Source: Escherichia coli
Lineage (GTDB): Bacteria > Pseudomonadota > Gammaproteobacteria > Enterobacterales > Enterobacteriaceae
DNA length: 64,000 bases
Reading direction: 5' to 3' (one strand)
NCBI RefSeq assembly: GCF_030013205.1
Contig: NZ_CP122648.1
Under the pieces are notes generated by a model. The model was not told the DNA's origin. It made no database searches and worked only from the letters and a program-made list of their open reading frames with translations. This document shows positions 3,136 through 39,140 of the stretch, in pieces. The position numbers were made by a program, and so were the translations under genes. Numbering within the stretch: position 1 is the first letter of the stretch; each line of letters starts with the position of its first letter.

Positions 3136-4155
3136 ATGTTGCAGTTTATTCTCCGACGTTTGGGACTCGTCATCCCCACGTTTATCGGTATTACCCTTCT
3201 CACATTTGCCTTTGTCCACATGATCCCGGGCGATCCGGTGATGATCATGGCGGGCGAACGTGGGATCTCCCCAGAGCGTCACGCGCAGCTGCTGGCTGAA
3301 CTCGGCTTAGATAAACCGATGTGGCAGCAGTATCTCAATTACATTTGGAGCGTAATGCACGGCGATTTAGGCATTTCGATGAAAAGCCGCATCCCGGTTT
3401 GGGAAGAGTTCGTGCCGCGCTTTCAGGCCACGCTGGAGCTTGGTGTCTGCGCGATGATTTTTGCGACTGCGGTCGGTATTCCAGTCGGTGTGCTGGCTGC
3501 GGTTAAACGCGGTTCCATTTTCGATCACACGGCGGTTGGTCTGGCGCTGACCGGCTACTCGATGCCGATCTTCTGGTGGGGCATGATGCTGATCATGCTG
3601 GTTTCGGTGCACTGGAACCTGACGCCCGTCTCCGGTCGCGTGAGCGACATGGTGTTCCTCGATGATTCCAATCCGTTAACCGGTTTTATGCTAATCGACA
3701 CCGCCATCTGGGGTGAAGACGGTAACTTTATCGATGCCGTCGCCCATATGATCCTGCCCGCCATTGTGCTGGGTACTATCCCGCTGGCGGTCATTGTACG
3801 TATGACACGCTCCTCGATGCTGGAAGTGCTGGGTGAAGATTACATCCGCACCGCGCGCGCCAAAGGGTTGGCCCGCATGCGGGTGATTATCGTCCATGCT
3901 CTGCGTAACGCGATGCTGCCGGTAGTGACCGTTATCGGCCTGCAGGTGGGAACATTGCTGGCGGGGGCGATTCTGACCGAAACCATCTTCTCGTGGCCCG
4001 GTCTGGGGCGCTGGTTGATTGACGCACTGCAACGCCGCGACTATCCGGTAGTGCAGGGCGGCGTATTGCTGGTGGCGACGATGATTATCCTCGTCAACTT
4101 GCTGGTCGATCTGCTGTACGGCGTGGTGAACCCGCGTATTCGTCATAAGAAGTAA
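3136..4155 (+). CDS. dppB: dipeptide ABC transporter permease
   Basis: ORF 3073..4155; start taken at the internal ATG giving a 339-aa product beginning MLQFILRRLG. Confidence 0.9.
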   Translation: MLQFILRRLGLVIPTFIGITLLTFAFVHMIPGDPVMIMAGERGISPERHAQLLAELGLDKPMWQQYLNYIWSVMHGDLGISMKSRIPVWEEFVPRFQATLELGVCAMIFATAVGIPVGVLAAVKRGSIFDHTAVGLALTGYSMPIFWWGMMLIMLVSVHWNLTPVSGRVSDMVFLDDSNPLTGFMLIDTAIWGEDGNFIDAVAHMILPAIVLGTIPLAVIVRMTRSSMLEVLGEDYIRTARAKGLARMRVIIVHALRNAMLPVVTVIGLQVGTLLAGAILTETIFSWPGLGRWLIDALQRRDYPVVQGGVLLVATMIILVNLLVDLLYGVVNPRIRHKK

Positions 4156-4164
4156 GGGGACATC

Positions 4165-5067
4165 ATGTCACAGGTTACTGAAAATAAAGTGATTAGCGCA
4201 CCGGTGCCGATGACCCCGTTACAGGAGTTCTGGCACTATTTTAAACGCAACAAAGGCGCGGTCGTCGGGCTGGTTTACGTCGTCATCGTGCTGTTTATCG
4301 CGATCTTTGCCAACTGGATTGCACCCTATAACCCGGCGGAACAGTTCCGCGATGCACTGCTCGCCCCGCCAGCCTGGCAGGAAGGCGGCAGCATGGCGCA
4401 CTTGCTGGGCACCGATGACGTAGGCCGTGATGTGCTGTCGCGTCTGATGTACGGTGCGCGATTGTCACTGCTGGTTGGCTGTCTGGTAGTTGTGTTATCG
4501 CTGATTATGGGCGTTATTCTCGGCCTGATCGCCGGTTACTTCGGCGGCCTGGTCGATAACATCATCATGCGCGTGGTCGATATCATGCTGGCGCTACCAA
4601 GTCTGCTGTTGGCACTGGTGCTGGTGGCGATTTTCGGCCCGTCGATTGGTAACGCCGCGCTGGCGCTGACCTTCGTTGCCTTGCCGCACTATGTGCGCTT
4701 AACACGCGCCGCCGTGCTGGTGGAGGTGAATCGCGATTACGTTACCGCGTCTCGCGTGGCAGGTGCCGGGGCGATGCGTCAGATGTTTATTAACATCTTC
4801 CCGAACTGCCTTGCGCCTCTGATTGTTCAGGCGTCGCTCGGTTTCTCTAACGCCATTCTCGATATGGCTGCTCTTGGTTTCCTCGGCATGGGGGCGCAGC
4901 CGCCAACGCCGGAGTGGGGCACCATGCTCTCCGACGTGTTGCAGTTCGCGCAAAGCGCCTGGTGGGTCGTGACCTTCCCGGGTCTGGCGATCCTGCTGAC
5001 GGTGCTGGCATTTAACCTGATGGGTGACGGTCTGCGTGACGCGCTCGATCCCAAACTGAAGCAGTAA
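4165..5067 (+). CDS. dppC: dipeptide ABC transporter permease
   Basis: 300-aa polytopic membrane ORF in operon position. Confidence 0.92.
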
Positions 5068-5077
5068 GAGGTTCGAG

Positions 5078-6057
<980 letters not shown>

Positions 6058-6061
<4 letters not shown>

Positions 6062-7062
6062 GTACGCATGAGGCCACCTCGCAACAACCGCTGTTGCAGG
6101 CTATCGACCTGAAAAAACATTATCCGGTGAAGAAAGGTATGTTCGCTCCGGAACGTCTGGTGAAGGCGCTGGATGGCGTTTCGTTTAACCTTGAACGTGG
6201 CAAAACGCTGGCGGTAGTAGGTGAATCCGGCTGCGGTAAATCTACCCTCGGTCGGTTGCTTACGATGATCGAAACGCCCACCGGCGGTGAGCTGTATTAC
6301 CAGGGGCAGGATCTGCTCAAGCACGATCCGCAGGCGCAGAAGCTGCGTCGGCAGAAAATCCAGATCGTCTTCCAGAATCCCTATGGTTCGCTAAATCCGC
6401 GTAAAAAAGTTGGGCAAATTCTTGAAGAGCCGCTGCTTATTAATACCAGCTTAAGCAAAGAACAGCGTCGGGAAAAAGCCCTGTCGATGATGGCGAAAGT
6501 CGGCCTGAAAACCGAGCATTACGACCGCTATCCGCATATGTTCTCCGGCGGTCAGCGTCAGCGTATCGCCATTGCCCGTGGTCTGATGCTCGACCCGGAT
6601 GTGGTGATTGCCGATGAACCGGTTTCCGCGCTGGACGTTTCAGTGCGTGCGCAGGTGCTGAATCTGATGATGGATTTGCAGCAGGAGTTGGGGCTGTCTT
6701 ATGTCTTTATCTCGCACGACCTGTCAGTGGTTGAGCACATTGCCGATGAAGTGATGGTGATGTACCTGGGCCGCTGCGTGGAGAAGGGAACGAAGGACCA
6801 AATCTTCAATAACCCGCGTCATCCGTACACTCAGGCGCTACTCTCCGCGACGCCGCGCCTGAACCCGGACGATCGCCGCGAGCGCATCAAGCTCACCGGT
6901 GAACTGCCAAGCCCGCTCAATCCACCGCCGGGCTGCGCGTTTAACGCCCGCTGTCGTCGGCGCTTCGGCCCCTGCACCCAGTTGCAGCCGCAGCTAAAAG
7001 ACTACGGCGGTCAACTGGTAGCTTGTTTTGCTGTTGATCAGGATGAAAATCCGCAGCGTTAA
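6058..7062 (+). CDS. dppF: dipeptide ABC transporter ATP-binding protein
   Basis: 334 aa; Walker [10 protein letters not shown]; 4-nt overlap with dppD. Confidence 0.93.
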
Positions 7063-7068
7063 CTCACA

Positions 7069-7093
7069 AAACCGGGGCCGTGCGCTCCGGTTT
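7069..7093. terminator. putative bidirectional stem-loop between convergent dppF and yhjV
   Basis: AAACCGG ... CCGGTTT inverted repeat. Confidence 0.4.
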
Positions 7094-8363
7094 ACTCAAT
7101 CAGCTTCAACAGTGGCGACAAGCATAGCAAAATGCCGTAAAGCAGAATCAGCCAGGCTTTAAATCCGCGAAGTTTTTCCAGTTGTGCGACTTTATAGATC
7201 AGGAAAAACGGAATGAGGCACGACACAATGCCATATAACGGGCTTCCCAACTGAAAGAACACCAGCACCGATACACGAAACGAAACCCAAATCGTCAACG
7301 TAATGACGATAAAAGCGCAGATCGCCAGAGTCAGCACGCGTGAATTAATTTTCTTGGTATCAATAATTCGGCTTAACAGATTGAGAATAATGCCTTTAAT
7401 GGCCTCGTGGAAACCGAGATAAATGCCAAAGAATGCGGTCAGTACGGCAAAGATATTCAGCACCGTAGAGGTGATATGAATGATATGCCCAGGGATCACC
7501 TGCGCGGCCAGTGCCAGTGCCGAGATATTTTGTTCAAAGGCAGAAACGGCTTCTTCGTGGCTAATTGAGAAGGTAAACGAAAAGGCAAAAAACAGGATCA
7601 CCGCAATGAGCGTGATATAACTAATTCGGTGGGTACGCAGCGCGAGCCGGGTTGCCAGTACTTTATCTGCTTCCCGTTTACGATAGGCAATATTCATTGG
7701 GTTAAGTACCTGAATAAATACTGCAGAAAAGAAGCAAAATGGAATGGTAAGCAGGACATCGCGGAAAAAGACGGAGGCTTGCGGGAAGGCGGTTATATTG
7801 GCGAAATTCCAGTGCGGGATCATCGCAAAACCGAACACGACAATAATCCCTACTTTGACCACCACCATTGGCCCGGAAATCTTAAACAGTAATCGTTCAC
7901 CACCAGACGCAATTGCCACCAGTACGGCGAAAATGGCGACTTTATAAAGTAGAGATTGTGAAAGATCGGCATCGGTTAAACCGAAGGTTTTCAGGTACGA
8001 GGCGCTGTCGAAAACCACGGAGAGAGAGTAGATAAAAATCCCGTGGATAATCATCAAAAAGTAGATAACCCCGAGGAAAATTCCCCAGTTCTTCCCCAGG
8101 TAATGACTGATAATATCGGTGTAGTCATTACAGGAATCGCTTTCAGAAAGGGTTTTTAAATAAATGTCCTGCACTACCCAGGTGGCAGGATAAGCAATGA
8201 TCGCTGCGGTAATAAATACCCAAATTCCCTTCAAGCCAATTTGTACTGGCATCAGCACGGTTCCGGCACCAATCGCCATGCCTATGCATAATAAAACCCA
8301 GCCGAAGTCGTAGCGTGTAAACGGCAATTTCTGATTGTGTTTCGGTAGTGTGTTGTGCTGCAT
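7092..8363 (-). CDS. yhjV: amino acid permease family inner-membrane transporter
   Basis: ORF 7092..8426; start taken at the internal ATG (8363) giving 423 aa beginning [10 protein letters not shown]; multi-TM. Confidence 0.85.
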
Positions 8364-8721
8364 AAAGTCCTGTCCAGAAAGAAGTCGGCCTCGCAAAAAT
8401 GAATAAACCCAGTTTCTCTTGCGCAACAGGTGGAGAAGTCGAATACGCAGTATGTAAAAAATGAGGCAACAGATTCACTGGGGAGGTCGCGAGGAGGCGC
8501 AATTCTACAAAATTGCGCATTTCACTACCAGTCTGGAGTCAGCTCGGATATGAACTGCAACTATTGCAAATAAAGAAATTAAGCTGGAAGGCATCGCGCA
8601 ATGAGGAAGATTGCCGGGTGCTGACGGTAAAAAGCAATCGTAAAATCAGCGGCAAGCCGGAAAGGTTCCGGTGAGGCGCAATGTTGCGGGGGCTTAATCC
8701 CTGGTGGCATTGGTTGCTGGA

Positions 8722-8790
8722 GAGAGAAAACCCCCGCACGTTGCAGGTATGCACCTGACAACATCACGGGGGCTAATCTTGAACCTAGAC
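8722..8790 (-). ncRNA. rdl: Rdl-type antisense sRNA (antitoxin of ldr), copy 1, approximate ends
   Basis: Antisense of the ldr leader; sequence GTCTAGGTTCAAGATTAGCCCCCG...GCGGGGGTTTTCTC recalled as Rdl-like. Confidence 0.4.
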
Positions 8791-8838
8791 CACTCAAGAA
8801 TAGCCGCGAAACGTTGTCATTACAACACAGGCGGCTAT

Positions 8839-8946
8839 ATGACGCTCGCAGAACTGGGCATGGCCTTCTGGCATGATTTAGCGGCTCCGGTCATTGCTGG
8901 CATTCTTGCCAGCATGATCGTGAACTGGCTGAATAAGCGGAAGTAA
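8839..8946 (+). CDS. ldrD: Ldr family type I toxin, 35 aa (MTLAELGMAFWHDLAAPVIAGILASMIVNWLNKRK)
   Basis: Sits at the 3' end of ORF 8704..8946; product matches the 35-aa Ldr peptide family. Confidence 0.8.
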   Translation: MTLAELGMAFWHDLAAPVIAGILASMIVNWLNKRK

Positions 8947-9205
8947 CGTGTCAGACGGGCGTCAGGCTGCCGTAATGGCAAGTTGCGTCCGGATCAGGCC
9001 GCAGGGATAAAACTCTGCGGCCTTTTTCGTAAGAAAAATGCAACGGTTGCAAGCGGATAATATTCTGCGGAATGCGCAGCACAGAGTGAAGACGTGACGG
9101 ATTCCGGAACAGAAAAACAGTCGTAGAATCAGCGGCAAGCCGGAAAGGTTCCGGTGAGGCGCAATGTTGCGGGGGCTTTATCCCTGGTGGCATTGGTTGC
9201 TGGAG

Positions 9206-9273
9206 AGAGAAAACCCCCGCACGTTGCAGGTATGCACCTGACAACACCACGGGGGCCATTCTTGCATCCAAAC
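9206..9273 (-). ncRNA. rdl: Rdl-type antisense sRNA, copy 2, approximate ends
   Basis: Paralogous position in repeat unit 2; the 5' portion diverges from copy 1. Confidence 0.35.
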
Positions 9274-9321
9274 AATACAAGAATAGCCGCGAAACGTTGT
9301 CATTACAACAGAGGCGGCTAT

Positions 9322-9429
9322 ATGACGCTCGCAGAGCTGGGCATGGCCTTCTGGCATGATTTAGCGGCTCCGGTCATTGCTGGCATTCTTGCCAGCATGA
9401 TCGTGAACTGGCTGAATAAGCGGAAGTAA
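9322..9429 (+). CDS. Ldr family type I toxin, 35 aa, copy 2
   Basis: Same peptide as copy 1, in the second repeat unit. Confidence 0.8.
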   Translation: MTLAELGMAFWHDLAAPVIAGILASMIVNWLNKRK

Positions 9430-9687
9430 CGTGTCAGACGGGCGTCAGGCTGCCGTAATGGCAATTTGCGCCCGGACCAGGCCGCAGGGATAAAACTCTG
9501 CGGCCTTTTTCGTAAGAAAAATGCAACGGTTGCAAGCGGATAATATTCTGCGGAATGCGCAGCACAGAGTGAAGAAGTGATGGATTCCGGAACAGAAAAA
9601 CAGTCGTAGAATCAGCGGCAAGCCGGAAAGGTTCCGGTGAGGCGCAATGTTGCGGGGGCTTAATCCCTGGTGGCATTGGTTGCTGGA

Positions 9688-9756
9688 GAGAGAAAACCCC
9701 CGCACGTTGCAGGTATGCACCTGACAACACCACGGGGGCCATTCTTGCATCTAGAC
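9688..9756 (-). ncRNA. rdl: Rdl-type antisense sRNA, copy 3, approximate ends
   Basis: Paralogous position in repeat unit 3. Confidence 0.35.
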
Positions 9757-9804
9757 CATTCAAGAATAGCCGCGAAATGTTGTCATTACAACACAGGCGG
9801 CTAT

Positions 9805-9912
9805 ATGACGCTCGCAGAACTGGGCATGGCCTTCTGGCATGATTTAGCGGCTCCGGTCATTGCTGGCATTCTTGCCAGTATGATCATGAACTGGCTGAAC
9901 AAGCGGAAGTAA
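9805..9912 (+). CDS. Ldr family type I toxin, 35 aa, copy 3 (variant ...ASMIMNWLNKRK)
   Basis: Third repeat unit; one substitution (I to M) relative to copies 1 and 2. Confidence 0.8.
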   Translation: MTLAELGMAFWHDLAAPVIAGILASMIMNWLNKRK

Positions 9913-9998
9913 CGTGTCATGCGGGCGTCAGGCTGCCGTAATGGCAATTTGCGCCCGGACCAGGCCGCAGGGGTGAAACTCTGCGGCCTTTTTCGTTC

Positions 9999-10907
9999 TT
10001 ATTGCGGGTAAGGCACCCAGTCGCCGCCGTTCAGGCGAACGTACGGTTTATCCTGGTATTGAATAACTACTGCATTTGAGTTCTCGGAGACCGGTGCTGT
10101 TTGTGGTAACCCACTGGTGAGTTTTTTCCAGTCAACATTGTCTTCGGAGAAAATCTTGCCATCAAGAACGCGAACCACCAGATCGGAGATAGCCAGGAAG
10201 CTGCTCGGTTGGTCGATGACAATCGGTGCCCCCTGATGTGGTGCCTTCATGCCGAAGAATTTCACCCCAACGGGGACGTCTGTGATAGACGGGCTAGGGA
10301 TATCACGTAGGCCAGATACCTGCATTCTGTCGCCCTTCAGCGCGCCACCGTGTTCCGGCACCACTACCACCATCACTTTACGACCCGACTTCTCCAGTTC
10401 AGTAAAGAAGGCGTCCAGCTCATCAAAGAATTTCTGTGCTCGCGCTTTGTAATCCGCTGTTTTGCTGACGCCCGGATAATGGTTGCCGTCATGCAGTGGA
10501 AGCGTGTTGTAGAACGTGGCACTACGGCTGTTTTTATCTTTTTCGGTAACGTCCAGCCAGCGGTTAAGCACGGCGGTATCGTCATAAACCGGCGAACCAT
10601 CAAAGCCCAGCAAAATAACCGGCAGATTTGTTTGATCCATCAATTCGGTCTGCATGCCGCCATTTTCGCGAACTTCTTTCAAAAAACCGCCGAACTGGCC
10701 GTTATGTCCCATCATCAGGTGCTGGGTAAAGCCCAGTTTCGACAGGTTATCAAACAGATAGCAGTCATTATTTGCCGGTTGATACAGATTAGTATGCGAA
10801 GTCTGCCCGCAGCTGGCGCGCAGTAAACGGATCGCCGCCGGAAGGTGACATTGCCGTCGAGTACTGGAGTACGGTGGCGAAAATTCCGGCTCGCCGTGGC
10901 GAAGCGA
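9999..10907 (-). pseudogene. bcsG: 5'-truncated remnant of cellulose phosphoethanolamine transferase gene (C-terminal about 240-300 codons only)
   Basis: Minus-strand frame is open from 10907 to the stop at 9999 and encodes ...YLFDNLSKLGFTQHLMMGHNGQFGG...NGGDWVPYPQ; no N-terminal TM region, promoter or RBS; abuts a bcsC fragment on the opposite strand. Confidence 0.7.
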
Positions 10908-33742: not shown

Positions 33743-34567
33743 ATGCAATCATTACATGGGAATTGTCTAATTGCGTACGCAAGACATAAATATATTCTCA
33801 CCATGGTTAATGGTGAATATCGCTATTTTAATGGCGGTGATCTGGTTTTTGCGGATGCAAGCCAAATTCAAGTGGATAAGTGTGTTGAGAATTTCGTATT
33901 AGTTTCAAGAGACACGCTTTCATTATTTCTCCCGATGCTCAAGGAGGAGGCATTAAAACTTCATGCACATAAAAAAGTTCCTTCATTACTCGTTCATCAC
34001 TGTACCAGAGATATTCCTGTTTTTCAGGAGGTTGCGCAACTATCGCAGAATAAGAATCTTCGCTATGCAGAAATGCTACGTAAAAGGGCATTAATCTTTG
34101 CGTTGTTATCTGTTTTTCTTGAGGATACGCAGTTTATACCGTTACTTCTGAACGTGTTGCAACCGAATATGCGAACACGAGTTTGTACGGTCATCAATAA
34201 TAATATCGCCCATGAGTGGACATTAGCCCGAATCGCTAGCGAATTGTTGATGAGTCCAAGCCTGTTAAAGAAAAAATTGCGCGAAGAAGGTACGTCATAT
34301 TCACAGTTGCTTACTGAGTGTAGGATGCAGCGTGCTTTACAACTTATTGTTATATATGGGGTTTCAATTAAGAGAGTTGCAGTGTCCTGTGGATATCACA
34401 GCGTGTCGTATTTCATTTACGTCTTTCGAAATTATTATGGGATGACGCCCACAGAGTATCAGGAGCGATCGGCGCAGGGATTGTCGAACCGTGACTCGGC
34501 GGCAAGTATTGTTGCGCAAGGGAATTTTTACGGCACTGACTGTTCTGCGGAAGGAATAAGATTATAG
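33743..34567 (+). CDS. gadX: AraC-family acid-resistance regulator
   Basis: 274 aa; C-terminal AraC HTH; conserved position after gadA. Confidence 0.92.
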   Translation: MQSLHGNCLIAYARHKYILTMVNGEYRYFNGGDLVFADASQIQVDKCVENFVLVSRDTLSLFLPMLKEEALKLHAHKKVPSLLVHHCTRDIPVFQEVAQLSQNKNLRYAEMLRKRALIFALLSVFLEDTQFIPLLLNVLQPNMRTRVCTVINNNIAHEWTLARIASELLMSPSLLKKKLREEGTSYSQLLTECRMQRALQLIVIYGVSIKRVAVSCGYHSVSYFIYVFRNYYGMTPTEYQERSAQGLSNRDSAASIVAQGNFYGTDCSAEGIRL

Positions 34568-34583
34568 AGTTTTACTCTGACAT

Positions 34584-34689
34584 AAAAAAAACCCGGCATA
34601 GGGGACCGGGAAGAGGATAGTCTGCCGTCTCCAGACTAATAAACCGTTATAACACTCCCTGTTGGCACGGGAAACTTTGTGCTCTCAGT
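34584..34689 (-). ncRNA. gadY: GadY small RNA, antisense to the gadX 3' end
   Basis: Minus-strand sequence ACTGAGAGCACAAAGTTTCCCGTGCCAACAGGGAG...CCCGGTCCCCTATGCCGGGTTTTTTTT matches my recollection of GadY and ends in a hairpin plus U-run. Confidence 0.75.
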
Positions 34690-34935
34690 AAGTTAAATAT
34701 AACTTTTACTGGAAATAAGATCAGCCATTTTTTTATAAACATAAGCTATACGCTGTGCGAAAATATATTCGTGTTGCATTTACTTATTATCAATTAACTG
34801 TTATGCAAAACTACTTTGTGGATAAATTTTGGTCCTACCAAATCTGGCAGTTTTTGCGCTAAGAAACAGTCTGGCATCATTTCATTAGTATACTGAAATT
34901 GAAATAATCGCAGTAATGAAATATAAGGGATAGTC

Positions 34936-35664
34936 ATGACTCATGTCTGCTCGGTGATCCTCGTTCGTCGTTCATTCGATATTTATCATGAACAGCAAAA
35001 AATATCGTTGCACAACGAGAGTATCCTGTTACTGGATAAAAATTTGGCAGACGATTTTGCGTTTTGTTCACCGGATACGCGACGACTGGATATCGATGAG
35101 CTGACAGTTTGCCATTACTTACAAAATATTCGTCAGATACCACGCAATTTAGGGTTACATAGCAAAGACCGTCTGTTAATTAACCAGTCACCCCCCATGC
35201 CGCTGGTGACGGCGATTTTTGATAGTTTCAATGACTCCGGGGTAAATTCACCGATACTGAGCAAAATGCTCTATCTTTCCTGTTTATCGATGTTTTCTCA
35301 TAAGAAAGAACTGATCCCCTTACTTTTCAATAGTATCAGTACTGTTTCAGGAAAAGTTGAACGCCTTATTAGCTTTGATATCGCCAAACGTTGGTATCTG
35401 CGCGATATTGCGGAAAGAATGTATACCAGCGAGAGTCTAATCAAAAAAAAGTTGCAGGATGAAAATACCTGTTTCAGTAAAATATTACTCGCCTCCAGGA
35501 TGTCGATGGCCAGACGATTACTCGAGTTACGTCAAATTCCTCTGCATACTATTGCGGAAAAATGTGGCTATAGCAGTACATCGTACTTTATAAACACATT
35601 TCGACAATATTATGGTGTAACGCCACATCAGTTTGCGCAACATTCGCCAGGTACCTTTTCCTGA
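34936..35664 (+). CDS. gadW: AraC-family acid-resistance regulator
   Basis: 242 aa; AraC HTH C-terminus. Confidence 0.92.
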   Translation: MTHVCSVILVRRSFDIYHEQQKISLHNESILLLDKNLADDFAFCSPDTRRLDIDELTVCHYLQNIRQIPRNLGLHSKDRLLINQSPPMPLVTAIFDSFNDSGVNSPILSKMLYLSCLSMFSHKKELIPLLFNSISTVSGKVERLISFDIAKRWYLRDIAERMYTSESLIKKKLQDENTCFSKILLASRMSMARRLLELRQIPLHTIAEKCGYSSTSYFINTFRQYYGVTPHQFAQHSPGTFS

Positions 35665-36026
35665 CATATTTTGCATTTGAATATTGGTCAGGATCTCACA
35701 CCTGCTTCATGTGAAACTCTTCCCTGATGATTTCTGCCGGGCTACCGGCTAGTTCTCTTTCGCAGTTTGCCAGGCGGTATAGGTATTTTCAGGAGGAAAA
35801 GACTCGGCATGTTTGGGATTATTAAGCTGACAATTCATACGATTACGGGAATGTGGGTCAGTATTGTGTTGTTTAAATTGATGACGAATGGCTGGAGTGG
35901 TTTCTACTTTCAGTGCTGTGTACTAAGCCTGGTATTCCTGACGGTTAGCTGGTTGTTGAGTGGTGAATGGTTAGCGGGAAAGAGTAAGGCTGAACCCTCA
36001 CGTTCAACCTTACTCTCATTTACACG

Positions 36027-39000
36027 TTACGCTTTTTTAAAGCGGGCAAAGAGATGTTCCACTACAACGAAAAAGACCGGAACGAAGTAAATTGCCAGCA
36101 CTGTTGCGGCAAACATCCCGCCCATCACGCCGGTACCTACCGCGTTTTGCGCGCCAGAACCGGCACCATGACTGATAACCAGCGGCAGCACGCCGAGAAT
36201 AAAGGCCAGAGAGGTCATCAGGATTGGGCGTAAACGCATCCGCGCCGCTTCGATGATTGCCTCTATCGGCGTTTTCCCTTCTTTCTGCATCATCTCAACG
36301 GCAAATTCGACAATCAGGATGGCGTTCTTGGCGGAAAGCCCGATGGTGGTCAGCAAACCAACCTGGAAGTAGACGTCATTACTTAAGCCGCGTAGATCGG
36401 TGGCCAGTAATGCGCCAACGACGCCTAACGGTACAACCAACATCACCGAGAACGGAATTGACCAGCTCTCATAAAGTGCGGCGAGGGCGAGGAACACCAC
36501 GACCAGTGAAATGGCATACAGCGCGGGAGCCTGATTTGAGGATAACGCTTCCTGATACGACAGTCCGGTCCATGAGTAGCCGACGCCTGCCGGAAGTTTA
36601 GCGACCAGGTCTGCCATAAATTTCATGGCGTCACCGGTACTTTTCCCGGCCGCCGCTTCACCTAAAATCTCCATTGACGGGATGCCGTTGTAGCGTTCCA
36701 GTCGCGGTGAACCATAGGTCCATTCGGTAGACGAATAGGCAGAAAGCGGTGCCATCGTGCCAGAGGCGTTGCGTACATACCATTGGTTGATGTTATCCGG
36801 CAACATACGGAACGGCGTGCCTGCCTGGACATACACTTTTTTCACCCGCCCCTGGTTGAGGAAGTCGTTCACGTAGCTGCTGCCGAAGGCGGTGGAAATT
36901 GTCTGGTTGATATCAGACAGCGCCACGCCCATCGCTTCAGCTTTCGCGGCGTTGACGTTCACTTTGAACATCGGCGTATCTTCCAGTCCGTTCGGACGTA
37001 CCCCGGTGACTTGATTCGGTGATTGCGCTGCCAGTGATAATAGCTCGTTTCGCGCCTGGGTCAGTTTTTCGTGCCCCAGGTTGCCGTTGTCCAGCAGTTC
37101 CATATCAAAACCTGACGCGGTACCCAGTTCAGCCACCGCGGGTAAGTTGAACGGGAAGACGACGGCTTTATTGATACTGCTTAACGCAATCATTGCCCGC
37201 TGAATGATCGCGGTAACCGAGTTTTCCTCACCGACACGTTCAGACCACGGCTTGAGACTGATAAACGCCAGACCGTTGTTTTGCCCCTGGCCGCTGAAGC
37301 CAAAGCCGCCAACGGTAAACACCGACTGAACATTATCTTTCTCTTTAGTCAGATAATAATCCGTCACCTGTTGCAGCACTTTCGTGGTGTTAACCATGGT
37401 GGCACCGGAAGGTAACTGCGCGGTGGTCATAAATACCCCCTGATCCTCTTCTGGTAAGAAAGAGGTCGGCGTACGCAGGAACAGCACCGCCATCCCAGCG
37501 CAAATCAGCAGGTAGACCACCATGTAGCGACCGGTACAACGCAACAGCGAGCGGGTGCTGTCGGTATAGTGCTGAGTTGATTTTTCAAACAGCGTGTTGA
37601 AGCGTGCGAACAGGGCGTTAGGTTTATGACCGCCTTCCGGCGCGGCTTTCAGAATGGTGGCGCACAGGGCAGGGGTCAGGCTCATTGCCACAAATACTGA
37701 AAGCAGCATGGAGGAGATCAGCGTGATGGAGAACTGGCGGTAGATCTCCCCGGTTGCACCGCTCATAAAGGCCATCGGCATAAACACTGCGGAAAGAACA
37801 ACGGCAATCCCGACCAGCGCACGTTGGATCTGCCCCATCGATTTATGCGTCGCTTCCTTCGGCGGTAGCTTATCTTCCGCAATGACACGCTCGACGTTCT
37901 CCACCACCACGATGGCGTCATCCACCAGTAACCCTATCGCCAGCACCATCCCGAACATAGTTAACGTGTTGATGGTGAAACCGACCGCCGACAAGATCGC
38001 AAACGTCCCGAGAATAACCACCGGTACGGCAATCGTCGGGATGATTGTGGCACGGAAATTCTGCAAAAACAGATACATGACCAGGAAGACGAGGATGATA
38101 GCCTCAACCAGTGTTTTGAAAACTTCCTGAATAGAAATTTCGATAAACGGCGTGGTGTCGTAAGGATAAACCGTCTTCAGACTTGCCGGGAAATAGGCTG
38201 ATAAGCGGTTCAGTTCCTCTTTGACTGCCCGCGAGGTATCCAGGGCGTTTGCTCCGGCAGCCAGTTTGATGGCGATCCCGGCAGCAGGTTTGCCGTTATA
38301 GCGCGCCACGGTGGAATAATCTTCCGCCCCAAGTTCGACGCGGGCGACATCACGCAGCAGCACTTGCGAACCATCTTGCTGAACTTTCAACAGGATTTTG
38401 CCAAATTCTTCCGGCGTTTGCAGACGCGTCTGCACAATGATCGAGGCGTTTAGTTGCTGGTCTGCCGCCTGTGGCATGCCACCCAGTTGACCACCGGAAA
38501 TCTGGTTGTTTTGCACCTTAATCTGGGAAATAACATCGGAAGGTACCAGATTGTATTTATTGAGTTTTTGCGGGTCCAGCCAGATACGCATGGCGTACTC
38601 GGAACCAAAGAGCTGTACGCTACCAACGCCCGCGGTACGGCTTAGCGGGTCTTTGATATTAGACGCTACATAGTCCGCGATATCGTACTGGTTGAGGCTG
38701 CCGTTATCAGAAATAAACGCCGCTACCATCAGAATATTACTGCTCGACTTATCAACGCTAATCCCCTGCTGCTGCACCGCTTCAGGTAATGAAGGCATAG
38801 CGAGTTGCAGTTTATTTTGCACCTGAACCTGTGCGATATCAGGAGATGTCCCAGTCTCGAAGGTCAGAGTGATAGAGGCATTACCCGCCGCATCACTGGT
38901 TGAAGACATGTACATCAGGCCATCAAGCCCATTCATATTTTGCTCAATCACCTGAGTGACCGAGTCTTCTACCGTTTGCGCATCGGCACCTGGATAGGTA

Positions 39001-39140
39001 GCGCTGACGGTAATGGTCGGTGGCGCAATCTGCGGATACTGCGCAACCGGTAAGTTCATGATCGCCAGACCACCTGCAAGCATCATAATAATGGCAAGTA
39101 CCCAGGCAAAAACCGGGCGATCAATAAAATAGTTAGCCAT
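36027..39140 (-). CDS. mdtF: RND multidrug efflux pump, inner-membrane transporter
   Basis: 1037-aa AcrB-family ORF. Confidence 0.93.

What the first reader, a model, noticed from the sequence alone, without database searches (positions are those of the whole stretch)
35809..36090. Possible small membrane-protein ORF between gadW and mdtF with a strong Shine-Dalgarno
An ATG at 35809 is preceded by AGGAGG (35791-35796) and opens a frame encoding two hydrophobic helix-like stretches (IIKLTIHTITGMWVSIVLFKL and FYFQCCVLSLVFLTVSWLL). The frame runs into the convergent mdtF 3' end and its terminator hairpin, so the true extent, if it is translated at all, is unclear.
Basis: inference. Interest (0 to 1): 0.3.

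Follow-up and report, generated by a model that had tools for sequence, protein, structure and literature searches.

The report
Unannotated acid-induced small membrane protein gene
The open reading frame between gadW and mdtF in E. coli is a real, evolutionarily conserved gene for a small two-helix membrane protein, already published in 2023 as acid-induced "sORF15" but still missing from reference annotation and with no known function.

Summary
ATG 35809, AGGAGG 35791-35796, a 93-codon frame ending at TAA 36088-36090, two hydrophobic stretches, and a 64-nt overlap with the convergent mdtF 3' end are all present.

It is not new. It is the same ORF as sORF15 of Schumacher et al. 2023 (mSystems, PMC10746267), at K-12 complement 3663464..3663745. 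That paper reports:
- a 16-fold rise in ribosome footprints and RNA at pH 4.4;
- two predicted transmembrane helices;
- a FLAG-tagged product detected from a plasmid.

RefSeq does not annotate it.

My analysis adds evolutionary evidence:
- The ORF is intact and free of indels in eight Escherichia lineages, including E. albertii and E. whittamii, and in 17 of 17 evenly sampled complete E. coli genomes.
- In-frame dN/dS for codons 1-59 is 0.03-0.17, against 0.36-3.5 in the other two frames.
- E. fergusonii has a syntenic 54-aa orthologue (49% identical) that keeps only the two-helix core.

Whether the basic C-terminal tail (about residues 57-93) is functional is unresolved. It is read through the complement of the mdtF terminator hairpin and antisense to mdtF.

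No homologue was found outside Escherichia, and there is no similarity to any known family.

Verdict: a real gene, already known, function unknown. The most likely role is modulating another membrane protein during acid stress.

The parts
35791..35796 (+). [quoted passage not shown]
   Evidence: Read directly from the sequence. The block TATTTTCAGGAGGAAAAGAC is invariant in all eight Escherichia lineages, while the flanking intergenic DNA varies and carries indels.
35809..36090 (+). Coding sequence of the 93-aa small protein (published sORF15), stop codon included
   Evidence: ORF list. It maps to K-12 complement 3663464..3663745, the coordinates of sORF15 in Table S7 of PMC10746267, and the protein is 92/93 identical (R65 here, C65 in K-12). 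It is intact in eight Escherichia lineages and in 17/17 sampled complete E. coli genomes.
35809..35976 (+). Conserved core, residues 1-56. TM1 is about residues 2-24 (35812-35880). The loop and start of TM2 carry the invariant motif GWSGF.F.CC (about 35890-35919). TM2 is about residues 31-52 (35899-35964).
   Evidence: dN/dS is 0.03-0.17 in frame and 0.36-3.5 out of frame. Residues 1-59 are identical in all sampled E. coli. The AF2 model has helices 2-26 and 31-56. Kyte-Doolittle 19-residue windows reach 1.5-1.95. Columns invariant with the E. fergusonii orthologue are listed.
35977..36087 (+). Basic C-terminal tail, about residues 57-93 (10 K/R and 1 D/E in the last 35 residues). Predicted third helix at residues 62-89. 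Functional status unresolved.
   Evidence: Charge count and AF2 helix 62-89 at low confidence. dN/dS for codons 60-72 ranges from 0 to 1.06 on very few sites. Codons 73-93 are fixed by mdtF, where the third positions of both genes coincide and variation is 0/0/5. The E. fergusonii orthologue has no tail.
35980..36017 (-). mdtF 3' hairpin (16-bp stem, 6-nt loop, weak U-tract). The small-protein frame (codons 58-70) reads through its complement.
   Evidence: Folding energy is -27.1 kcal/mol on the minus strand and -21.1 on the plus strand. Escherichia sp. E1V33 (L006) has a compensatory pair change. E. albertii (L008) has a change that pairs (G-U) only on the minus strand. The consensus terminator scan did not call it, because neither strand has a canonical T-run.
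36027..36090 (-). 3' end of mdtF (stop codon 36027-36029), overlapped antisense by the last 21 codons and the stop of the small ORF
   Evidence: ORF list; RefSeq annotation of mdtF in an identical genome and in K-12.
34936..35664 (+). gadW, the upstream same-strand gene with which the small ORF is most likely co-transcribed
   Evidence: Annotation. No sigma-70-like promoter was found on the plus strand between gadW and the ORF. The paper places sORF15 in the gadW 3' UTR, with RNA log2FC +4.0 at pH 4.4. In E. fergusonii the orthologue starts 19 nt after the gadW-like stop codon.
35736..35759 (+). Short GC hairpin (GCCGG-GCTA-CCGGC) followed by a T-rich run, between gadW and the small ORF. Possibly a partial terminator or attenuator.
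   Evidence: It is the only plus-strand terminator-like site in the scan, and that count is no higher than in shuffles. The stem is partly conserved across species, and L004 has an 11-nt deletion removing its 3' half. Its function was not tested.

Best explanation
This is a genuine protein-coding gene of the Escherichia acid-fitness island. It encodes a small inner-membrane protein with two transmembrane helices. Both termini are predicted to face the cytoplasm, and a short periplasmic loop carries the invariant motif GWSGF(Y/F)F(Q/H)CC.

It lies downstream of gadW on the same strand and is most likely made from read-through gadX-gadW mRNA. It therefore appears when the Gad regulon is induced by severe acid.

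Shown:
- the ORF and its Shine-Dalgarno sequence;
- identity with published sORF15, which has acid-induced ribosome footprints and a tagged product expressed from a plasmid;
- purifying selection on the two-helix core;
- a syntenic orthologue in E. fergusonii.

Inferred:
- Co-transcription with gadW.
- Topology, from the positive-inside rule.
- Mode of action. As with other bacterial small membrane proteins, it most likely binds and modulates a larger inner-membrane protein that is co-expressed under acid stress. I rate the neighbouring RND pump MdtF (an AcrZ-like role) at about 0.2, GadC or a sensor kinase (a SafA-like role) at about 0.15 together, and the rest as unknown.

The basic tail of about 37 residues in E. 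coli is a lineage-specific extension. It arises because the frame runs through the complement of the mdtF terminator and into antisense mdtF. The core is the conserved functional unit.
For: - Identity with sORF15: same K-12 coordinates and 92/93 identical residues.
- Published data for sORF15: Ribo-seq log2FC +4.2 (padj 1e-38) and RNA log2FC +4.0 at pH 4.4; two transmembrane helices by DeepTMHMM; positive FLAG Western blot.
- The ORF is intact with no indel in 282 nt across eight Escherichia lineages, while the upstream spacer has several indels.
- dN/dS is 0.03-0.17 in frame, 0.36-3.5 in the other frames, and 0-0.14 for the end of gadW.
- Third-position excess has p = 1.5e-4. Fisher's test on synonymous versus nonsynonymous changes, window versus E. 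albertii, gives p = 1e-11.
- 17/17 evenly spread complete E. coli genomes have 93 aa, with residues 1-59 identical.
- 5408 of 5426 genomes carry the region essentially complete.
- E. fergusonii has a 54-aa orthologue in the same position between a gadW-like gene (62% identical) and mdtF. It shares 49% identity, with pN 0.30 against pS 0.97, similar to gadW at 0.23 and 0.80.
- The AF2 model has helices 2-26, 31-56 and 62-89. Hydropathy and charge counts agree.
Against: - No protein has been detected from the native locus. The Western blot used an arabinose promoter on a plasmid.
- No phenotype is known.
- The Shine-Dalgarno spacing of 12 nt is long, and the E. fergusonii orthologue has a GTG start with no obvious Shine-Dalgarno sequence.
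- The 3' end of the plus-strand transcript is unknown. If it ends at the hairpin, the E. coli frame would lack a stop codon.
- RefSeq/PGAP does not call the gene.
- There is no similarity to AcrZ, SafA, or any Pfam, NCBIfam or PDB entry, so the proposed mode of action rests on analogy and gene neighbourhood alone.
- The AF2 model has only moderate confidence (mean pLDDT 64).
Confidence: 0.82

Rival explanations
1. The ORF is translated but functionless. It would be pervasive or noisy translation of a chance ORF in the long gadW 3' UTR, with a hydrophobic product simply because the sequence is T-rich.
For: ORF length alone is not significant, as 8% of shuffles match it. The ORF is not annotated by RefSeq. 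No family membership was found. The neighbouring published candidate sORF14 does look like noise, being frameshifted or stopped in other species.
Against: In-frame dN/dS is 0.03-0.17, while the other frames are near or above 1. There are no indels in eight lineages despite indels immediately upstream. All six variable sites in codons 1-59 within sampled E. coli leave the protein unchanged. An orthologue persists in E. fergusonii at saturated synonymous divergence.
Confidence: 0.05
2. What matters is the act of translation or the RNA, not the peptide. For example, ribosomes running through the complement of the mdtF terminator and into antisense mdtF could modulate convergent transcription, stabilise gadXW mRNA, or control an antisense interaction with gadE-mdtEF mRNA.
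For: The frame crosses a conserved hairpin and overlaps mdtF by 64 nt. Both operons belong to the acid response. The Shine-Dalgarno block is invariant.
Against: A purely cis-acting ORF should not show amino-acid-level constraint, yet the core does. The E. fergusonii orthologue stops before the terminator and does not overlap mdtF, but keeps the peptide motif. Rfam finds no RNA family here; GadY is the only hit, further upstream.
Confidence: 0.06
3. A refinement concerning extent. Only the two-helix core of about 55 residues is functional. The 37-residue basic tail of the E. coli/E. albertii lineage would be an incidental read-through product, kept open only because the hairpin and mdtF constrain that DNA.
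For: The E. fergusonii orthologue is 54 aa and ends just before its terminator hairpin. The only amino-acid polymorphisms in sampled E. coli (A61V, R65C) lie in the tail. dN/dS for codons 60-72 scatters from 0 to 1.06. Codons 73-93 vary only where mdtF's third positions vary. Frameshifted 76-aa variants exist in some draft and read-archive (Logan) assemblies.
Against: The tail frame is open in all eight lineages. The 1-nt deletion allele that produces the 76-aa form is found in 0 of 5426 complete genomes. The wild-type 39-mer is exact in 4908 + 203 genomes. A C-terminal FLAG fusion after residue 93 was detected, so full-length translation occurs, at least from a plasmid. A basic amphipathic tail is a plausible cytoplasmic anchor.
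Confidence: 0.45

Closest known systems
sORF15 of Schumacher et al. 2023 (mSystems 8:e01037-23, PMC10746267)
   Same: It is the same ORF. The K-12 coordinates are complement 3663464..3663745, the length is 93 aa, and 92/93 residues are identical. It has the same Shine-Dalgarno sequence and the same reading as a two-transmembrane-helix inner-membrane protein in the gadW 3' region.
   Different: Nothing differs in substance. The window strain has R65 where K-12 has C65. The paper gave no selection analysis and reported BLAST homologues in Vibrio, Klebsiella, Salmonella and Enterococcus. My searches of 5.8 and 1.8 billion proteins found only Escherichia/Shigella-type sequences and the E. fergusonii orthologue.
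AcrZ (49 aa), accessory subunit of the AcrB RND permease
   Same: Both are small hydrophobic inner-membrane proteins. The candidate's neighbour MdtF is an AcrB paralogue. A 2024 study reports that AcrZ itself co-purified MdtF (PMC11539335), so RND pumps of this type do accept small-protein partners.
   Different: There is no sequence similarity (BLASTP found no alignment; no Pfam hit). The candidate has two predicted helices rather than one. It is convergent to mdtF and in the gadW transcription unit rather than co-regulated by MarA/Rob/SoxS. No binding data exist.
SafA (B1500, 65 aa), a membrane connector encoded next to the AraC-family acid regulator YdeO
   Same: Both are small membrane proteins encoded on the same strand immediately beside an AraC-family regulator of the acid-resistance network (safA-ydeO adjacency confirmed in the K-12 annotation). 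From general knowledge, SafA is induced by acid through EvgA and works by binding a larger membrane protein, PhoQ.
   Different: There is no sequence similarity. SafA has a single transmembrane helix and lies upstream of its regulator, whereas this gene lies downstream. No partner is known for the present protein.
Automatically called 'hypothetical protein' entries in GenBank and UniRef (for example UniRef A0A0D6GAG9_ECOLX; E. fergusonii 'putative exported protein')
   Same: The exact 93-aa sequence occurs on at least 1000 contigs. Some submitters' pipelines have called it in E. coli and Shigella, and the 54-aa form has been called in E. fergusonii ATCC 35469.
   Different: These entries carry no name, family or function, and RefSeq/PGAP drops the gene.

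Membership tests
sORF15 (Schumacher et al. 2023) | Same genomic position: gadW 3' region, K-12 complement 3663464..3663745 | tested here: met
   The window-to-K-12 alignment maps ATG 35809 to 3663745 and the stop to 3663464. Table S7 gives the same coordinates.
sORF15 (Schumacher et al. 2023) | Same protein sequence | tested here: met
   92/93 residues identical, R65 versus C65.
sORF15 (Schumacher et al. 2023) | Acid-induced ribosome occupancy and a detectable protein product | not testable with these tools
   Taken from the paper: Ribo-seq log2FC +4.2 at pH 4.4, and a FLAG Western blot from pBAD24.
Protein-coding gene under selection | ORF intact in orthologous loci across species | tested here: met
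   Eight Escherichia lineages all have 93 aa and no indels. 17/17 sampled E. coli are intact. E. fergusonii has a 54-aa orthologue.
Protein-coding gene under selection | dN/dS well below 1 in the proposed frame only | tested here: met
   0.03-0.17 in frame against 0.36-3.5 out of frame for codons 1-59. Third-position excess p = 1.5e-4. Inconclusive for codons 60-93.
Protein-coding gene under selection | Protein detected from the native chromosomal locus | not testable with these tools
   Only plasmid expression has been published.
AcrZ-type RND pump accessory protein | Sequence membership of the AcrZ family | tested here: not met
   No Pfam family at E <= 10. BLASTP against K-12 AcrZ gave no alignment at E <= 100.
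AcrZ-type RND pump accessory protein | Single transmembrane helix of about 50 aa | tested here: not met
   Two hydrophobic helices plus a tail, 93 aa.
AcrZ-type RND pump accessory protein | Physical binding to the RND permease | not testable with these tools
   No interaction data exist. The structure tool returns no coordinates or interface scores for complexes.
SafA-type connector (small membrane protein paired with an AraC-family acid regulator) | Sequence similarity to SafA | tested here: not met
   BLASTP against K-12 SafA gave no alignment. No Pfam hit.
SafA-type connector (small membrane protein paired with an AraC-family acid regulator) | Same-strand adjacency and co-transcription with the regulator | tested here: inconclusive
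   Same-strand adjacency is shown: 144 nt after gadW here and 19 nt in E. fergusonii. No plus-strand promoter was found in between. RNA co-induction is published. No transcript mapping was obtained.
SafA-type connector (small membrane protein paired with an AraC-family acid regulator) | Binds and modulates a sensor kinase or other membrane protein | not testable with these tools
   No data.

The most novel reading that the evidence does not exclude
The protein may be a dedicated acid-stress partner of a large membrane protein of the acid-fitness island. The most attractive candidate is an AcrZ-like accessory subunit that tunes MdtEF-TolC. A connector acting on GadC or a sensor kinase is the alternative. 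Its E. coli-lineage tail would then be a C-terminal extension born by overprinting on the antisense strand of the mdtF terminator and coding end. That would make it a documented case of recent de novo sequence gain in a conserved small protein.
Probability: 0.2. Interest if true: 0.55.

Novelty: already known. Interest (0 to 1): 0.3.

Why it matters
The acid-fitness island of E. coli is one of the most studied stress loci in bacteriology, yet reference annotation still shows an empty 362-bp gap between gadW and mdtF. This analysis shows that the published candidate sORF15 has evolved under purifying selection across the genus. That supports adding it to the annotation and testing it genetically. 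It would also add a membrane component to the Gad/MdtEF system. The contrast between the 54-aa E. fergusonii form and the 93-aa E. coli form gives a natural experiment on whether a tail read from the antisense of a neighbouring gene has acquired function.

Tried and rejected
- **RNA families.** An Rfam scan of 34500-36300 at E <= 1 found only GadY at 34579-34692 on the minus strand. Nothing overlapped the ORF.
- **Protein families and structures.** Pfam and NCBIfam at E <= 10 gave no family. A PDB sequence-profile search gave no hit. BLASTP against AcrZ and SafA gave no alignment.
- **Remote homologues.** A profile search of 1.84 billion representative proteins and two searches of 5.8 billion proteins found only Escherichia/Shigella copies, fragments or frameshifted versions of them, and one real distant homologue, the E. 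fergusonii 54-aa protein.
- **Alternative start at TTG 35767 (107 aa).** Rejected. The extension changes non-conservatively, and the TTG is TCG in one lineage.
- **Internal ATG at codon 15.** Rejected. It is Ile in two lineages.
- **Own promoter between gadW and the ORF.** None was found on the plus strand.
- **Frameshifted 76-aa variants.** They are caused by a 1-nt deletion in an AAA run. One source assembly also has broken gadW and mdtF, which points to sequencing error. The allele is absent from all 5426 complete genomes.
- **Transcript 3' ends.** The supplements of the E. coli Term-seq paper PMC7815308 contain no gadW or mdtF entries.
- **Structure searches and complex prediction.** I did not run fold searches because the AF2 model is only moderately confident (pLDDT 64) and a two-helix hairpin gives meaningless matches. 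I did not attempt a fused MdtF-sORF15 prediction because the tool returns no coordinates or interface scores.
Full report
**Context.** The window carries the E. coli acid-fitness island in the order gadX (33743-34567, +), gadW (34936-35664, +) and convergent mdtF (36027-39140, -). GadY lies between gadX and gadW on the minus strand (Rfam). The 426 nt examined are identical to strain CFSAN061763 and 99% identical to K-12.

**Checking the observation.** The sequence shows AGGAGG at 35791-35796 and ATG at 35809. A 93-codon frame ends at TAA 36088-36090. The last 64 nt are antisense to the end of mdtF, and codons 58-70 read through a 16-bp hairpin at 35980-36017.

Two caveats apply:
- The Shine-Dalgarno core is 12 nt from the ATG, which is long.
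- An ATG ORF of this length arises in 8% of dinucleotide-preserving shuffles of the intergenic region.

The single sequence is therefore suggestive rather than conclusive.

**It is already published.** A full-text search found Schumacher et al. 2023 (mSystems, PMC10746267). Their Table S7 lists sORF15 at NC_000913.3:3663464-3663745 (-), 93 aa. These are exactly the coordinates to which my alignment maps the window ORF, and the protein is 92/93 identical.

The authors found it by inspecting the gadW 3' UTR in Ribo-seq data. They report:
- Ribo-seq log2FC +4.2 (padj 1e-38) at pH 4.4 versus 7.6, RNA log2FC +4.0, and unchanged translation efficiency;
- two transmembrane helices by DeepTMHMM, and a possible third helix by ColabFold;
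- a FLAG signal from pBAD24-sORF15:3xFLAG.

No later paper in the library mentions it. RefSeq annotates nothing between gadW and mdtF, either in K-12 or in the 40 listed genomes. Some GenBank and UniRef pipelines do call the exact sequence a hypothetical protein.

**Evolutionary test (new here).** A scan of GTDB species representatives with GadW returned six further Escherichia loci:
- two E. coli-like genomes;
- strain E69;
- Escherichia sp. E1V33;
- E. whittamii;
- E. albertii.

Regional DNA identity to the window ranged from 95% down to 83%.

All eight sequences keep a 93-codon ORF with no indel in 282 nt. The 144 nt upstream contain several indels, except for the invariant block TATTTTCAGGAGGAAAAGAC.

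Variable columns in codons 1-59 fall 17/10/35 on codon positions 1/2/3 (chi-square p = 3e-4; third-position excess p = 1.5e-4). The upstream spacer gives 24/22/22.

| Region or frame | Nei-Gojobori dN/dS | Source |
|---|---|---|
| Codons 1-59, proposed frame (dS 0.23-1.07) | 0.03-0.17 | |
| Same region, the two shifted frames | 0.36-3.5 | |
| Last 20 codons of gadW | 0-0.14 | |

Within E. coli, 17 genomes taken at even steps down the ranking of 5415 hits all encode 93 aa with residues 1-59 identical. All six variable sites in that part leave the protein unchanged. Gross disruption is rare: 5408 of 5426 genomes carry at least 80% of the region in one piece. One O121 strain has an IS66 element inserted near codon 14.

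**The E. fergusonii orthologue.** The profile search of 1.84 billion representative proteins produced one truly divergent relative, a 54-aa protein. It is encoded in E. fergusonii ATCC 35469 in the same position. It begins 19 nt after a gadW-like gene (62% identical to GadW) and ends 42 nt before convergent mdtF, with mdtE, gadE and hdeD beyond.

It is 49% identical to the E. coli protein over 41 residues. Both hydrophobic helices and the motif GWSGF(Y/F)F(Q/H)CC are retained. Against E. coli, nucleotide differences fall 21/9/37 by codon position. pN is 0.30 and pS is 0.97, comparable to gadW at 0.23 and 0.80.

It stops immediately before its own terminator hairpin and has no tail. No homologue outside Escherichia/Shigella was found in any search. 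This does not reproduce the paper's BLAST report of homologues in Vibrio, Klebsiella, Salmonella and Enterococcus. Those may be mislabelled or contaminated records, but I could not check that directly.

**Extent of the protein.** Selection is demonstrable only for the core.

- *Codons 60-72.* These overlap the hairpin. The hairpin is stronger on the minus strand (-27 versus -21 kcal/mol). It shows a compensatory change in one species and a substitution that pairs only on the minus strand in E. albertii, so it serves mdtF. dN/dS in this stretch scatters from 0 to 1.06 on very few sites.
- *Codons 73-93.* These are antisense to mdtF in the register where both genes' third positions coincide. Variation is 0/0/5, so the sequence and its open frame are dictated by MdtF.

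Evidence that the tail is dispensable:
- the tail-less E. fergusonii form;
- the only E. coli amino-acid polymorphisms (A61V, R65C) lie in the tail;
- 76-aa frameshift variants occur in some draft assemblies.

Evidence that the full length is maintained:
- the frameshift allele is absent from all 5426 complete genomes;
- the wild-type 39-mer is exact in 4908 + 203 of them;
- a C-terminal FLAG fusion was detected.

I leave this open, at about 0.45 that the tail is incidental.

**Start codon and transcription.** ATG 35809 is the start. The in-frame TTG at 35767 is lost in one lineage, and its extension changes non-conservatively. Met15 is Ile in two lineages.

No plus-strand promoter-like site lies between gadW and the ORF. 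A small GC hairpin with a T-rich run at 35736-35759 could attenuate read-through. Co-transcription with gadW is therefore inferred from three things: this layout, the parallel RNA and footprint induction in the paper, and the 19-nt spacing in E. fergusonii. I found no 3'-end mapping data.

**Likely mechanism.** The AF2 model (mean pLDDT 64) gives helices 2-26, 31-56 and 62-89. The last 35 residues have 10 K/R and 1 D/E. By the positive-inside rule, both termini are therefore cytoplasmic. The most conserved residues then lie in the short periplasmic loop and the outer end of TM2.

The protein has no similarity to any known family or solved structure:

| Compared against | Result |
|---|---|
| AcrZ | no alignment |
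| SafA | no alignment |
| Pfam | no family |
| NCBIfam | no family |
| PDB | no hit |

Bacterial small membrane proteins generally act by binding larger membrane proteins. By that analogy I propose it modulates a co-expressed partner. MdtF is the leading candidate, for three reasons:
- conserved neighbourhood in all Escherichia, including E. fergusonii, where gadX and gadA are not adjacent;
- the AcrZ-AcrB precedent;
- AcrZ has been reported to pull down MdtF.

The safA-ydeO pair is a second precedent from the same acid network: a small membrane connector encoded beside an AraC-family acid regulator. These are analogies, not tests.

**Verdict.** The novelty class is "already known". Interest is modest (0.3): an unannotated, genus-restricted, selected small membrane protein gene of unknown function in a classic locus, with an open question about its antisense-derived tail.

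Noticed in passing
window 35711-35752 (+): The second published candidate in this spacer, sORF14 (13 aa, GTG start), is not conserved as a protein. Its frame is shifted by indels in E. albertii and two other lineages, stopped early in E. whittamii, and starts with GTA in one lineage. It overlaps the small GC hairpin at 35736-35749, so its ribosome signal may not reflect a selected peptide.
   Followed up: partly
window 35980-36017 (-): The mdtF 3' hairpin lacks a canonical U-tract on either strand and was not called by the terminator scan. It nevertheless shows a compensatory pair change in Escherichia sp. E1V33 and a minus-strand-only G-U pair in E. albertii. It may act as a non-canonical or bidirectional terminator for the convergent gadW and mdtF units.
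   Followed up: partly
L031 (NZ_CP119441.1, E. coli O121) 1-2500, junction near window 35849: An IS66-family element (tnpA/tnpB/tnpC) is inserted inside the small ORF near codon 14 in this strain. It is a natural knockout that could be used for phenotyping.
   Followed up: no
L032 (E. fergusonii CU928158.2) 3710-12165: E. fergusonii has hdeD-gadE-mdtE-mdtF, the small ORF and a gadW-like gene. Upstream of the gadW-like gene lie a second AraC-family gene and a histidine-phosphatase gene instead of gadX-gadA. The small ORF therefore travels with gadW and mdtF rather than with the decarboxylase.
   Followed up: partly
window 35979-35981 (AAA run): A 1-nt deletion here produces a 76-aa variant in several read-archive (Logan) assemblies and one error-rich GenBank assembly. 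It is absent from all 5426 complete genomes. I did not resolve whether the read-archive cases are real rare alleles or assembly errors.
   Followed up: partly
E. coli genome search: One of the 5433 matching places lies on a record classed as a plasmid, and it carries the same G-haplotype 39-mer as the window. It could be a misassigned replicon or a chromosomal fragment on a plasmid.
   Followed up: no
window 34579-34692 (-): A full-length GadY sRNA lies between gadX and gadW (Rfam RF00122, 150 bits), as expected for this locus.
   Followed up: yes
PMC10746267, Fig. S9C claim: The paper lists sORF15 homologues with more than 80% identity in Vibrio, Klebsiella, Salmonella and Enterococcus. My database searches returned only Escherichia/Shigella-labelled sequences. 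UniRef labels such as 'n=4 Gammaproteobacteria' hint at mislabelled entries.
   Followed up: partly
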